Notes under the pieces: model-generated
What the model saw: only the letters and a program-made list of their open reading frames with translations
Database searches by the model: none
Told to the model about the DNA's origin: nothing
Position numbers and translations under genes: made by a program
In this document: positions 1,680 through 18,498 of the stretch, piece after piece
Position numbering within the stretch: the stretch's first letter is position 1
Layout: each line of letters opens with the position of its first letter
IMG/VR virus record: IMGVR_UViG_2660238061_000008
Strand: one strand, 5' to 3'
Source: a virus
Taxonomy: Duplodnaviria; Heunggongvirae; Uroviricota; Caudoviricetes
DNA length: 18,498 bases

Positions 1680-1915
1680 TTTTATTAATAAATAAAGCTA
1701 TTGTTTCATTCGTGTGTTTTTCTTTACAAAAGTAATCCTTGCTATGGTTGGTTAATCATGCGTTAATGGTGTTCTGGTTTGTTACAAAATTATCTGAAGC
1801 AGTCATTGTTATAATTTTATTATTTGTACCTCTTGAGATTTCCTTGTTGGTTTTTCTCTCTGATATTTTTTTTCGGACCATTCTGCCCAAGGGCTAACTT
1901 CTTCAAAAGGTAATA
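1680..1915 (+). promoter_or_regulatory. cspA-like promoter and long 5' UTR for the cold-shock gene
   Basis: AT-rich UP-like tract 1680-1735; -35 TTGCTA (1739-1744), 17-bp spacer, -10 GTTAAT (1762-1767), resembling cspA TTGCAT/CTTAAT; alternative extended -10 TGtTATAAT at 1807-1815; AAAGGTAATA just before the ATG resembles the cspA leader. Confidence 0.35.
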
Positions 1916-1918
1916 ATG

Positions 1919-2131
1919 ATGTCTAACAAAATGACTGGTTTAGTGAAATGGTTTAACCCTGAAAAAGGTTTTGGTTTCATCACGCCGAAAGATGGTAGCA
2001 AAGATGTGTTTGTCCATTTCTCAGCTATTCAGAGCAACGATTTCAAAACGTTAACTGAGAATCAGGAAGTCGAATTTGGTATTGAGAACGGACCTAAAGG
2101 CCCCGCGGCTGTTCATGTTGTGGCACTTTGA
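1919..2131 (+). CDS. cspI: Cold-shock protein, CspA family (CspI-like, prophage-encoded)
   Basis: Translation [38 protein letters not shown]... carries RNP1/RNP2 cold-shock-domain motifs and matches my recollection of E. coli CspI. Tandem ATGs at 1916 and 1919. Confidence 0.9.
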
Positions 2132-2330
2132 GGTAGAAAATATTACAAACCATATTCACTTTAGATGCCCGTGTTGCCATGGTTCTCAGTATAGAACATC
2201 ATCTTTTGATGTTTCTGACAGGAATCCTTTCGGGGCAAAATGTATCTTTTGTAAATCAATGATGATTACATTTGATAATATTTCACAATACTTAAATGTT
2301 AGCCGTCTATCGTTAGATTTAAGAAAGTGA
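2115..2330 (+). CDS. Putative small Cys-rich (zinc-ribbon-like) protein; very uncertain
   Basis: ORF overlapping the csp stop; contains HFRCPCCHG...AKCIFCK (two Cys pairs about 25 aa apart); ends 6 nt before a strong terminator; no clear SD, rare codons, start ambiguous (TTG 2076 or ATG 2115). Confidence 0.25.
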
Positions 2331-2335
2331 AAATG

Positions 2336-2358
2336 AAGGCTCCTTCGGGAGCTTTTTT
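2336..2358 (+). terminator. Rho-independent terminator closing the csp transcription unit
   Basis: GC-rich stem GGCTCC / GGAGC around a TTCG tetraloop, followed by TTTTTT (2353-2358). Confidence 0.6.
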
Positions 2359-2442
2359 GCTTAGTGTCTAGTCGATGGATACTCACATATTACGGTAACA
2401 TTATGAAAAAAAATAATAGTTTTTTTTAACTCTGAACCAGCA

Positions 2443-2634
2443 ATGGTAGTGCCAGTGATGACCGGAGTTAACACCATCATGCGTGAATATCCAAATGGCG
2501 AAACAACACACCTCACTGTAATGGCTGCAGGGTTTCCATCTCTGACCGGAGATCATAAAGTCATTTATGTAGCAGCGGATCGACATGTAACTTCAGAAGA
2601 AATTCTGGAAGCAGCAATGAGACTCTTGAATTGA
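2443..2634 (+). CDS. Hypothetical small protein (63 aa), moron region
   Basis: ATG-initiated ORF with protein-like composition (MTGVNTIMREYPNGETTHLTVMAAGFPSLTGDHKVIYVAADRHVTSEEILEAAMRLLN); no recognisable SD; antisense frame is junk. Confidence 0.4.
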   Translation: MVVPVMTGVNTIMREYPNGETTHLTVMAAGFPSLTGDHKVIYVAADRHVTSEEILEAAMRLLN

Positions 2635-2728
2635 TTTGATTCTAATGCATTGATAATAAATGATAATCATCTTTATCTGTTTGTGTGAAATTTAGACCGT
2701 CGTATGTTGATTATTGCGATGTTTCATC

Positions 2729-2757
2729 TTATCTTTTATACGTTTGCTCCATATAAT
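2729..2757 (+). promoter_or_regulatory. Candidate sigma70 promoter upstream of the gns gene
   Basis: Perfect -10 TATAAT at 2752-2757 with a weak -35 (TTATCT 2729-2734) at 17-bp spacing; lies about 50 nt upstream of the gns start. Confidence 0.3.
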
Positions 2758-2806
2758 TGACACTACTGTGTACCAGGAAAGTCATAACAGACTAAAAGAG
2801 GAAATG

Positions 2807-2980
2807 ATGAACATTGAAGAGTTAAAAACAAAAACAGAAGCAGATATTTCTGAATATATAACAAAAAAAATCATTGAGCTTAAGAAAAAGACCGGGAAAG
2901 AAGTTACCAGTATCCAGTTTACTGCACGGGAAAAAATGACTGGTCTTGAAAGCTATGATATCAAGATTGATTTAATCTAG
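2807..2980 (+). CDS. gnsB: GnsA/GnsB-family small protein
   Basis: Translation MNIEELKTKTEADISEYITKKIIELKKKTGKEVTSIQFTAREKMTGLESYDIKIDLI closely resembles E. coli GnsB/GnsA (57 aa); SD AAGAGGAA upstream; tandem ATGs at 2804/2807. Confidence 0.8.
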   Translation: MNIEELKTKTEADISEYITKKIIELKKKTGKEVTSIQFTAREKMTGLESYDIKIDLI

Positions 2981-3109
2981 TCTGTTTAGTATTAGCATCA
3001 ATTTCTCATCAGATGCTATTCAACAATACAAATTACCCATAAACCTCGTTTTTACGGGGTTTTGTTATATTTAAACATTACCGAATAGGTATAAATCTCG
3101 ATTGTCGAT

Positions 3110-16948: not shown

Positions 16949-17310
16949 ATGCAGGATATTCCACAGGAAACACATCATGAGACGACACGCCTCACTCAGT
17001 CAGCCCAGGTGGTGCTCTGGGAAATCGATCTGACAGTGGTCGGTGGAGAACGTTATTTTTTCTGTAATGAGCAGAACGAAAAAGGTGAGCCGATCACCTG
17101 GCAGGGGCGACAGTATCAGGCGTATCCCATTCAGGGGACGGGATTTGAACTGAACGGCAAGGGCAGTGCTGCCCGTCCGACACTGACGGTTTCTAACCTG
17201 CACGGCATGGTCACCGCGATGGCGGAAGACCTGCAGAGTCTGGTCGGAGGAACGGTGGTCCGGCGTAAGGTTTACGCCCGTTTTCTGGATGCGGTGAACT
17301 TCGTCAACGG
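16949..17310 (+). CDS. L: Minor tail protein L, N-terminal part only (truncated by the N gap)
   Basis: MQDIPQETHHETTRLTQSAQVVLWEIDLT.VGGERYFFCNEQNEKGEP.TWQGRQYQ.YPIQG.GFELNGKG...RPTLTVSNL.GMVT.MAED.QSLVGGTVVRRKVYARFLDAVNFVNG is nearly identical to the lambda gpL N-terminus; similarity ends exactly at the Ns. Confidence 0.9.
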
Positions 17311-17320
17311 NNNNNNNNNN
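17311..17320. other. Assembly gap (10 N): scaffold join between a prophage contig and a chromosomal contig
   Basis: Run of n characters; sequence character changes abruptly across it from phage tail gene L to REP elements and mhpE. Confidence 0.95.
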
Positions 17321-17440
17321 CACGCCGCATCCGGCTGTCGTGCGCAGATGCCTGATGCGACGCTAACACGTCTTATCAGGCCTACAAATTCTCACGCCAC
17401 CCGTAGGCCGGACAAGACGTTTACGCCGCATCCGGCAGTC
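17321..17440. repeat. REP/BIME cluster (repetitive extragenic palindromes)
   Basis: GCCTGATGCGACGCTAACACGTCTTATCAGGCCTAC (17350-17385) and inverted copy GTAGGCCGGACAAGACGTTTACGCCGCATCCGGCA (17403-17437) match the E. coli REP consensus; a partial copy abuts the gap. Confidence 0.8.
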
Positions 17441-17484
17441 GTGCTGGGATGGGCATACAAAATGCACGTTATCGGCAGTCATCA

Positions 17485-18498
17485 TTATTTGTTGTTGCGC
17501 AGATCCAGCGCCACGTCGACGATCATATCCTCCTGGCCGCCAACCATCCGGCGTTTGCCCAGCTCAACGAGAATATCCACCGCACTTAAGCCATAACGCG
17601 CCGCCGCCGTTTCACAGTGACGCAGGAAGCTCGAGTAAACACCAGCGTATCCCAGCGCCAGCGTTTCGCGATCGACTCGTACCGGTCGATCCTGCAACGG
17701 ACGCACCAGGTCGTCGGCGGCATCCATTAACGCATAGAGATCGGTCCCATGCTGCCAGCCCAGTTTATCCGCGGCGGCAATAAACACTTCCAGCGGTGCG
17801 TTACCTGCGCCCGCGCCCATTCCCGCGAGGCTGGCGTCGATTCGGTCGCAGCCCTCTTCCACCGCCGCGATAGAGTTCGCCACGCCAAGACTCAGGTTAT
17901 GGTGAGCGTGCATGCCAGTTTGCGTTTCTGGTTTCAGCTCTGCTTTCAGGGCGCGGAAACGGTCACGGATATCGCTCATGTTCATCGCACCGCCAGAATC
18001 CACCACATAAATACAGGTCGCACCGTAGCCTTCCATCAGCTTTGCCTGCTTGGCGAGATTCTCCGGCGTGGTCATATGGCTCATCATCAGAAAACCAACG
18101 GTGTCCATTCCGAGCTCGCGGGCATACTGAATATGCTGGGCGGAAACATCAGCTTCGGTACAGTGCGTTGCCACACTAACCACCCGCGCGCCAGCCTGCC
18201 AGGCATTTTTCAGATCGTGAATAGTGCCGATTCCTGGCAGCAACAACGTCGCGATTTTGGCGTGCTTCACCACATCCGCCGCCGCTTCAATCCATTCAAG
18301 GTCGCTATGTGCGCCGAAACCATAGTTAAAGCTGGAACCTTGCAAACCGTCGCCGTGGGCCACTTCAATCGAATCCACGCGGGCATCGTCCAGTGCTTTG
18401 GCAATCTGGCGAACGTTTTCCAGCGAATACTGATGACGAATGGCGTGCATACCGTCACGCAATGTGACGTCCGAGATATAAAGTTTTTTACCGTTCAT
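17485..18498 (-). CDS. mhpE: 4-hydroxy-2-oxovalerate aldolase (3-hydroxyphenylpropionate degradation)
   Basis: 337-aa translation [66 protein letters not shown]... is essentially E. coli MhpE; start codon sits at the window edge (18496-18498). Confidence 0.95.

What the first reader, a model, noticed from the sequence alone, without database searches (positions are those of the whole stretch)
2076..2358. Unannotated Cys-rich small ORF between csp and a strong terminator
An 84-aa frame (71 aa from ATG 2115) overlaps the csp stop and ends 6 nt before a GC-rich TTCG-loop terminator. It contains RCPCCHG...(about 25 aa)...CIFCK, which resembles a zinc-ribbon. It could be a translationally coupled small zinc-binding protein co-expressed with csp, or just the csp 3' UTR. 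The start is ambiguous and there is no SD, so this is speculative.
Basis: inference. Interest (0 to 1): 0.45.

Follow-up and report, generated by a model that had tools for sequence, protein, structure and literature searches.

The report
Known cold-shock small protein gene ynfQ
The Cys-rich frame after the cold-shock gene is real but already known: it is ynfQ, a 62-residue four-cysteine protein of the YmcF family that starts at an unusual ATT codon just after the cspI stop; its function is still untested.

Summary
The ORF, the Cys motif and the hairpin are in the sequence as described. It is not unannotated. It is ynfQ of the Qin-type lambdoid prophage of E. coli (K-12 b4724; RefSeq "cold shock small protein YmcF"; Pfam PF23641, 112 bits against a cut-off of 27).

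The gene is 2142-2330 (62 aa). It starts at ATT, not at ATG 2115 or TTG 2076. In K-12 and other relatives the ATG is followed directly by TAG.

There is a Shine-Dalgarno sequence. GAGG at 2130-2133 overlaps the cspI stop codon (TGA 2129-2131), 8 nt before the ATT.

The frame is under strong purifying selection: pN/pS is 0.13, against about 2 in the other two frames. Only C9, C12, C34 and C37 are universal, which makes a CxxC...CxxC site.

In 80 genomes, all 47 copies lying 9-10 nt behind an intact, terminating csp start with ATT or ATC. Of the 33 others, 23 have ATG. This points to translation coupled to csp.

The gene lies on the cspI thermosensor mRNA (Rfam RF01766, 1761-2177) and is followed by an intrinsic terminator. 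Its biochemical role is still untested. Low interest as a discovery.

The parts
1761..2177 (+). cspI cold-shock mRNA: long 5' UTR plus coding region (cspA-type thermoregulator). ynfQ lies at the 3' end of this transcript.
   Evidence: Rfam RF01766 cspA thermoregulator, 109.8 bits (gathering score 78), full model 1-428.
1919..2131 (+). cspI coding sequence (70 aa), stop TGA at 2129-2131.
   Evidence: RefSeq annotation of the 99.8% identical locus. Pfam CSD at E=1.7e-31 and NCBIfam Csp models.
2076..2141 (+). It is open in this window by chance and is not part of the gene.
   Evidence: In K-12, Shigella, E. ruysiae and another E. coli the codon after the ATG is TAG. This is GTT to GTA, which is synonymous in cspI. 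The number of open upstream codons varies from 3 to 94 among homologues.
2129..2133 (+). TGAGG: the cspI stop codon fused to the Shine-Dalgarno sequence of ynfQ, 8 nt before the start codon.
   Evidence: T(A/G)AGG is found 7-8 nt before the ATT/ATC start in all 51 homologous loci that keep the csp 3' end, across 30 distinct upstream strings.
2142..2330 (+). ynfQ coding sequence: ATT start, 62 codons, stop TGA at 2328-2330. YmcF-family small protein.
   Evidence: Same coordinates as RefSeq WP_071528545.1 and K-12 b4724. Pfam PF23641 at 112 bits. pN/pS 0.13; variable sites by codon position 18/14/44 of 45.
2166..2177 (+). First metal knuckle, C9-P-C11-C12. C9 and C12 are universal; C11 is lost in distant relatives.
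   Evidence: Alignments of 36 and 33 family members and of divergent representatives.
2241..2252 (+). Second metal knuckle, C34-I-F-C37.
   Evidence: C37 is invariant and C34 at least 90% conserved. GAKCIFCK is the most conserved block.
2335..2358 (+). Intrinsic terminator: stem 2335-2343/2348-2356 with a GC core, UUCG loop 2344-2347, T-run 2353-2358.
   Evidence: Folding energy -12.4 to -14.5 kcal/mol, z = -2.8. A hairpin plus T-run follows the stop in most csp-linked homologues although its sequence differs.
2333..2371 (+). Remnant of ynfR (12 codons, against 21 in K-12) lying over the terminator. Truncated by TAG at 2369-2371.
   Evidence: Alignment with K-12, which has TAT there. RefSeq flags it as a pseudo 'too short' CDS. 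YnfR-SPA is cold-shock induced in K-12 (PMC6001520).

Best explanation
The feature is ynfQ, the second cistron of the cspI cold-shock transcript of a Qin-type lambdoid prophage. It encodes a basic 62-residue protein of the YmcF family (calculated pI 9.0). An N-terminal core of about 43 residues carries two CxxC knuckles (C9/C12 and C34/C37). These most likely hold one metal ion in a zinc-ribbon or rubredoxin-like fold. A poorly conserved helix follows.

Shown here:
- It is a conserved coding gene.
- It starts at ATT 2142.
- Its Shine-Dalgarno sequence is fused to the cspI stop codon.
- It ends at an intrinsic terminator.

Inferred:
- Ribosomes that finish cspI re-initiate 10 nt downstream on the weak AUU codon. 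YnfQ would then be made only when cspI is translated, that is after cold shock, and in a fixed sub-stoichiometric ratio to CspI.
- The protein acts on RNA, the ribosome or Csp itself during cold adaptation. The grounds are its positive charge, the conserved Arg, Lys and aromatic residues, and its near-exclusive linkage to an RNA chaperone gene.

The confidence given is for the whole statement. Identity as the coding gene ynfQ with the ATT start is close to certain; the coupling mechanism and the role of the protein are much less so.
For: Identity:
- The locus is 99.8% identical to E. coli loci annotated cspI-ynfQ-ynfN-gnsB, and K-12 b4724 has the same boundaries.
- Pfam YmcF-like scores 112 bits against a cut-off of 27.

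Coding:
- pN/pS is 0.13 in frame against 1.85 and 2.08 out of frame, at a median pS of 0.81.
- 19 columns are invariant.

Start and coupling:
- ATT or ATC sits at the homologous codon, with T(A/G)AGG 7-8 nt upstream, in every csp-linked locus.
- Start codons: 47 of 47 loci with an intact, terminating csp 9-10 nt upstream have ATT or ATC. Of the other 33, 23 have ATG at codon 1 or 2.
- The ATG cases fall in at least four lineages: Klebsiella/Raoultella (csp pseudogene), Enterobacter/Leclercia/Silvania (no csp), Atlantibacter (csp remnant), and C. sedlakii (csp stop deleted).

Cold-shock transcript:
- Rfam cspA thermoregulator at 1761-2177.
- ynfQ is listed as cold-shock induced and co-regulated with cspI and ynfN (PMC11228462).

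Fold:
- AF2 mean pLDDT is 74.6, and 86-92 over residues 11-40.
- The calculated pI is 9.0.
Against: - No translation or expression data were analysed here, and the primary paper that defined ynfQ/ymcF was not found in the library.
- The link between start codon and csp is phylogenetically clustered, so the counts are not independent events.
- One lineage (Pseudescherichia, 8 loci) keeps ATT without any csp.
- The proposed RNA or ribosome role rests only on composition and gene linkage.
- The local mRNA fold around the start is no more stable than shuffled sequence (z = 0.16), so a structure-gated coupling mechanism is not supported.
Confidence: 0.8

Rival explanations
1. The region is only the 3' UTR of cspI, and the ORF is a chance open frame.
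For: The region is AT-rich, there is no canonical ATG/GTG/TTG start at the true 5' end, and 6 of 9 phage records leave it unannotated.
Against: pN/pS is 0.13 in this frame against about 2 in the others. Third-position variability is 44 of 45 codons, against 18 and 14 at positions 1 and 2. The Pfam family hit is E=1.5e-32. The protein is conserved at 50-76% identity across Enterobacterales genera while synonymous sites are nearly saturated.
Confidence: 0.01
2. The protein is the longer 71-aa (ATG 2115) or 84-aa (TTG 2076) form, which overlaps the end of cspI.
For: The frame is open back to 2076 in this window and in several Citrobacter loci (29 open codons). Some database entries are 70-71 aa long.
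Against: K-12, Shigella, E. ruysiae and another E. coli have TAG directly after that ATG. Other genera have only 3-9 open codons upstream. The substitution that makes the stop is synonymous in cspI. No Shine-Dalgarno sequence precedes 2115. RefSeq and K-12 both start the gene at the ATT.
Confidence: 0.03
3. The four cysteines bind iron, either rubredoxin-like or in a Rieske-like cluster using CPCxHGSxY, and the protein is a small redox protein rather than a structural zinc ribbon.
For: There is a local match of [12 protein letters not shown] to Rieske box II, CPCHGSQY (E=0.04). A 2026 review modelled YnfQ with Fe2+ in a rubredoxin topology (PMC13348028).
Against: H13 and C11 are replaced in Pantoea, Cedecea, Winslowiella, Mangrovibacter and Phytobacter relatives: Q, S, L or G at position 13, and K, T, H, R, S, Q or N at position 11. 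There is no Rieske box I. No rubredoxin appears in the PDB sequence or fold searches; the neighbours are zinc ribbons. A mononuclear Fe(Cys)4 site cannot be excluded by computation.
Confidence: 0.12
4. The main function of the segment is as RNA, for example a 3'-end-derived small RNA or a stabilising 3' element of the cspI mRNA, with coding only secondary.
For: In Salmonella enterica subsp. diarizonae the Rfam sRNA STnc220 (102 bits) covers the last 40 nt of ymcF plus its terminator (L020:2147-2226).
Against: No sRNA family reaches significance in window 1700-3100; the best is STnc130 at 24 bits against a gathering score of 55. The selection pattern is that of a protein. The terminator sequence is not conserved between genera.
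Confidence: 0.05

Closest known systems
YnfQ (b4724, Qin prophage) of E. coli K-12 MG1655
   Same: Same gene at the same position (cspI-ynfQ-ynfR-ynfN-gnsB), with the same ATT start, 62 codons and terminator. Few nucleotide differences across 1900-2460.
   Different: A few substitutions. The window keeps the upstream frame open (GTT where K-12 has GTA, giving TAG). Here the prophage still has its packaging, head and tail genes, whereas K-12 Qin is defective.
YmcF (b4723), downstream of cspG in E. coli; Pfam PF23641 YmcF-like
   Same: A paralogue with 66% identity and the same layout: csp stop, 10 nt, ATT start, then a terminator, with gnsA further downstream (loci L047 and L056).
   Different: It is a chromosomal cspG module rather than a prophage cspI module, and the C-terminal third differs.
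Zinc-ribbon domains (TFIIE-alpha finger 1vd4, ribosomal zinc-ribbon proteins, RPB12, primase Zn finger)
   Same: Two CxxC knuckles about 20 residues apart on short beta-hairpins. These are the top structural neighbours, and there is a weak profile hit to the primase zinc-finger region.
AUU-initiated genes of E. coli (infC, pcnB), from my own knowledge
   Same: Use of the rare AUU start codon.
   Different: Here the AUU lies 10 nt behind the stop codon of a very highly translated gene, with the Shine-Dalgarno sequence fused to that stop. Whether IF3 controls it, as for infC, was not tested.
YnfU (b4776), putative zinc-binding small protein next to cspB in Qin
   Same: A small CxxC...CxxC protein in the same prophage near a csp gene.
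   Different: No detectable homology: hhalign probability 1.2%. It is on the strand opposite to cspB.

Membership tests
YmcF-like family (Pfam PF23641; RefSeq 'cold shock small protein YmcF') | Scores above the curated Pfam gathering threshold over the whole model. | tested here: met
   112 bits against 27, E=1.5e-32, model positions 1-61 of 62.
YmcF-like family (Pfam PF23641; RefSeq 'cold shock small protein YmcF') | The conserved core C-P-x-C-x-G-S-Q-Y-R ... N-P-x-G-A-x-C-I-F-C-K with four universal cysteines. | tested here: met
   All four are present: C9, C12, C34 and C37, at window 2166-2177 and 2241-2252.
YmcF-like family (Pfam PF23641; RefSeq 'cold shock small protein YmcF') | Lies immediately downstream of a cold-shock csp gene on the same strand. 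| tested here: met
   10 nt after the cspI stop. The same holds in 47 of 80 genome loci.
YmcF-like family (Pfam PF23641; RefSeq 'cold shock small protein YmcF') | Induced by cold shock. | not testable with these tools
   Indirect only: it lies on the cspA-type thermoregulator transcript, ynfQ is described as cold-shock induced in PMC11228462, and the neighbouring YnfR is cold induced (PMC6001520).
Zinc ribbon fold | Two CxxC knuckles at the turns of beta-hairpins that come together at one site. | tested here: inconclusive
Zinc ribbon fold | Binds one Zn2+ per domain. | not testable with these tools
   Needs metal analysis of purified protein.
Rieske [2Fe-2S] proteins | Box I (C-x-H-x-G-C) together with box II (C-x-x-H), both conserved. 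| tested here: not met
   Only a box II-like string is present. There is no box I, and the His is replaced by Q, S, L or G in distant family members.
Translationally coupled gene pair (termination-reinitiation) | The stop of the upstream gene lies within a few nucleotides of the downstream Shine-Dalgarno sequence and start, and downstream translation depends on upstream translation. | tested here: inconclusive
   The geometry is met: the stop is fused to the Shine-Dalgarno sequence and the gap is 9-10 nt in 47 of 47 loci. Dependence is supported only by the comparative pattern, with ATT/ATC when coupled and ATG when csp is lost. It needs a reporter experiment.

The most novel reading that the evidence does not exclude
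The weak AUU/AUC start is kept by selection only where ymcF/ynfQ sits 9-10 nt behind a terminating csp. It changes to AUG each time the csp is lost. Translation of this zinc-ribbon protein would then be obligately slaved to ribosomes finishing the cold-shock gene, and possibly tuned by IF3, itself a cold-shock factor that discriminates against AUU. This would set a fixed low YmcF:Csp ratio, and YmcF would be a so far uncharacterised partner of Csp RNA chaperones, or of the ribosome, in cold adaptation. I found no paper in the held library that describes this coupling or any function for the protein.
Probability: 0.35. Interest if true: 0.4.

Novelty: already known. Interest (0 to 1): 0.15.

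Why it matters
As a discovery it does not matter much. The gene is named in E. coli K-12, has a Pfam family and is annotated by RefSeq.

Two points have some practical value:
- Gene callers miss it because it starts with ATT, and 6 of 9 phage GenBank records leave it blank. A sequence-only reader will therefore keep rediscovering it with the wrong start.
- YnfQ and YmcF are still listed among the uncharacterised E. coli genes (PMC11551758). The comparative pattern found here gives a concrete, cheap hypothesis about how the protein's dose is tied to Csp synthesis: a stop-SD fusion, a conserved AUU/AUC start, and AUG only where the csp is gone.

Tried and rejected
- **Longer ORF forms (TTG 2076, ATG 2115).** Rejected because homologues carry stops there.
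- **Rieske-like Fe-S motif.** Suggested by weak NCBIfam and PDB hits to CPCHGSQY. Rejected because H13 and C11 are not conserved in distant relatives and box I is absent.
- **Homology to YnfU, the neighbouring small CxxC protein of Qin.** hhalign probability is 1.2%; rejected.
- **NCBIfam ECs_2282_CxxC family.** 16.6 bits against a cut-off of 37; not a member.
- **An mRNA hairpin that hides the SD and AUU and would be opened by ribosomes on cspI.** The predicted pairing exists, but the fold is no better than shuffles (z = 0.16). It also involves codons constrained by the protein, so it is not supported.
- **sRNA families in 1700-3100.** None is significant.
- **Functional link to ynfN or gnsB.** These are present in only part of the loci, whereas csp is the constant neighbour.
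- **An 8-codon upstream ORF as a substitute coupling partner in Pseudescherichia.** It is present in most of that lineage, but L059 lacks its ATG, so the idea stays weak.
- **Literature.** Searches for ymcF and ynfQ found only lists and one structural mention. The primary description was not found; one DOI and one guessed PMC id failed. The 'ynfQ' of VanOrsdel 2018 is a different ORF, at the coordinates now annotated as ynfT.

Full report
**What is there.** The window is the late region of a Qin-type lambdoid prophage of E. coli:

| Gene or region | Window coordinates |
|---|---|
| lysozyme rrrQ | 528-1061 |
| rzpQ | 1058-1555 |
| cspI | 1919-2131 |
| the ORF in question | 2076-2330 as reported |
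| ynfN | 2443-2634 |
| gnsB | 2807-2980 |
| terminase, portal, head and tail genes | downstream of gnsB |

**It is a known gene.** A 601-nt query around the finding matches 2,146 of 5,426 complete E. coli genomes. The features annotated under the match are cspI, ynfQ (or ymcF, 'cold shock small protein YmcF'), ynfN and a short pseudo-CDS. In the 99.8% identical strain CFSAN018748 the ynfQ CDS corresponds to window 2142-2330. K-12 MG1655 annotates ynfQ (b4724) with the same boundaries, 10 nt after cspI. The translation hits Pfam PF23641 'YmcF-like' with 112 bits against a cut-off of 27. Homologues named 'cold shock small protein YmcF' occur in Escherichia, Citrobacter, Salmonella, Klebsiella, Raoultella, Enterobacter, Kosakonia and other genera. 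More distant ones occur in Pantoea, Winslowiella, Cedecea, Mangrovibacter, Phytobacter and Dickeya. The family is narrow: 42 representatives at 50% identity, out of 1.84 billion proteins, reach E <= 0.001.

**It is coding.** I compared 69 distinct homologous sequences over codons 2-46. Variable sites by codon position are 18, 14 and 44 of 45. The median pN/pS is 0.13 in this frame, against 1.85 and 2.08 in the other two, and synonymous sites are nearly saturated (median pS 0.81). The reading 'just a 3' UTR' is therefore rejected.

**Where it starts.** The homologous first codon is:
- ATT in Escherichia, Citrobacter, Kosakonia, Scandinavium, Trabulsiella, Yokenella and others;
- ATC in Salmonella and Siccibacter;
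- ATG in Klebsiella, Raoultella, Enterobacter, Leclercia and Silvania.

The frame upstream of that codon is not conserved. K-12, Shigella, E. ruysiae and another E. coli read ATG-TAG where this window reads ATG-TTG. The substitution, GTT to GTA, is synonymous in cspI. The number of open codons upstream ranges from 3 to 94. The 71-aa and 84-aa forms are therefore accidents of this allele.

TGAGG at 2129-2133 is the cspI stop codon fused to a Shine-Dalgarno sequence, 8 nt before the ATT. T(A/G)AGG at 7-8 nt is present in all 51 ATT/ATC loci that keep the csp 3' end, although the surrounding 14 nt occur in 30 different versions.

**How it is probably expressed.** Rfam's cspA thermoregulator model (5' UTR plus coding region) matches 1761-2177 at 109.8 bits. 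ynfQ therefore rides on the cold-shock cspI mRNA. The hairpin after its stop is a plausible intrinsic terminator at -12.4 to -14.5 kcal/mol, and most csp-linked homologues have a different hairpin plus T-run at the same place.

I classified the 80 genome loci by start codon and by what lies upstream:

| Context upstream of the gene | Loci | Start codon |
|---|---|---|
| Intact, terminating csp 9-10 nt upstream | 47 | ATT or ATC in all 47, never ATG |
| All other loci | 33 | ATG at codon 1 or 2 in 23; ATT in 10 |

The 23 ATG cases fall in at least four lineages:
- Klebsiella/Raoultella, where the csp upstream is a pseudogene full of stops;
- Enterobacter/Leclercia/Silvania, with no csp;
- Atlantibacter, with a csp remnant;
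- C. sedlakii, where a short deletion removed the csp stop so that csp runs in frame into ymcF.

ATT to ATG is a single change, and synonymous sites are saturated. Retention of the weak codon only in the coupled context therefore suggests selection. My inference is that ribosomes terminating on cspI re-initiate on AUU, which ties YnfQ output to CspI synthesis. This is an inference and not a result. The counts are phylogenetically clustered, and one lineage (Pseudescherichia, 8 loci) keeps ATT without a csp. A hairpin that would gate the start is not supported (z = 0.16).

**What the protein looks like.** F7, C9, P10, C12, G14, S15, Q16, R18, S20, D23, P29, G31, A32, K33, I35, F36, C37, K38 and M41 are invariant in 33 sequences. 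In the more distant relatives C11 and H13 are replaced, which leaves C9, C12, C34 and C37 as the only universal metal ligands. This rules out the Rieske-like reading suggested by weak hits to CPCHGSQY.

The constant gene neighbour is csp, while ynfN and gnsB are facultative. From this I infer a nucleic-acid-, ribosome- or Csp-associated role in the cold. This step is not shown.

**Literature.** In the held library:
- ynfQ is listed among uncharacterised Qin genes (PMC11551758).
- It is described as cold-shock induced, and it is induced together with cspI and ynfN after AZT treatment (PMC11228462).
- It was modelled as a rubredoxin-like miniprotein (PMC13348028).
- The adjacent YnfR was shown to be cold induced (PMC6001520). 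The 'ynfQ' in that paper's table is a different ORF, at the coordinates now annotated as ynfT.
- I did not find the paper that first defined ynfQ and ymcF.

**Verdict.** The gene is already known, so novelty is nil and interest is low. The only part that may be new is the comparative evidence for obligate AUU/AUC-based coupling to csp.

Noticed in passing
window 2333-2371 (+): The small gene ynfR is truncated here to 12 codons by TAG at 2369-2371. K-12 has TAT there and 21 codons. The ORF lies exactly over the ynfQ terminator hairpin. K-12 YnfR-SPA is cold-shock induced (PMC6001520), so transcription must read through this terminator in the cold.
   Followed up: partly
window 2403-2443 (+), A-run 2406-2413: The long (76-aa) form of ynfN annotated in near-identical strains starts at ATG 2403. 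This window has A8 instead of A7, which shifts the frame and ends it after 8 codons. Only the 63-aa ORF from ATG 2443 remains. K-12 has T7 instead of T8 in the next run and is annotated from a later ATG. This is homopolymer length variation at the 5' end of ynfN.
   Followed up: partly
window 1761-2177 (+): Full-length match to the Rfam cspA thermoregulator (RF01766, 109.8 bits). It places the cspI transcript start near 1761 and covers the first codons of ynfQ.
   Followed up: yes
L020:2147-2226 (Salmonella enterica subsp. diarizonae): The Rfam sRNA STnc220 (102 bits) overlaps the last 40 nt of the Salmonella ymcF homologue and its terminator. This raises the possibility of a 3'-end-derived sRNA there. 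There is no equivalent hit in the window.
   Followed up: partly
L009:1794-2186 (Citrobacter sedlakii): A short deletion removed the csp stop codon, so the csp frame runs directly into ymcF, giving a possible Csp-YmcF fusion. Here ymcF has ATG instead of ATT.
   Followed up: partly
L016, L018, L034, L037, L040, L048 (Klebsiella, Raoultella), about 300 nt upstream of position 2001: The csp directly upstream of ymcF has decayed into a pseudogene with many stops, although its C-terminal '...VVNVVA' is still recognisable. ymcF has ATG. An intact csp with thermoregulator lies about 500 nt further upstream in L040.
   Followed up: partly
L027, L028, L031-L033, L035, L061 (Pseudescherichia), positions about 1982-2008: ymcF keeps ATT without any csp. 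An 8-codon ORF (ATGAAAAAAGGATACTATTATTACTAA, MKKGYYYY) overlaps the start and could replace csp as the coupling partner, but L059 lacks its ATG.
   Followed up: partly
phage records H36-H38, H40, H42, H44: Several GenBank phage records, including phages 2H10, mEp460_ev081, PhiR63_1 and PhiR42_1, encode YnfQ at 95-98% identity with no annotated feature. The likely reason is that gene callers do not accept ATT starts.
   Followed up: no
L004, L053, L082: E. coli-like or Scandinavium-like csp-ymcF loci sit in assemblies labelled Veillonella parvula MAG, Mucilaginibacter MAG and Chryseobacterium sp. This is probably contamination of the bin or assembly.
   Followed up: no
window 17310-18498: The best-matching E. 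coli prophages align only up to about 17310 (93-94% coverage, in 2 pieces). The far end of the window is therefore a different mosaic segment of the tail region.
   Followed up: no
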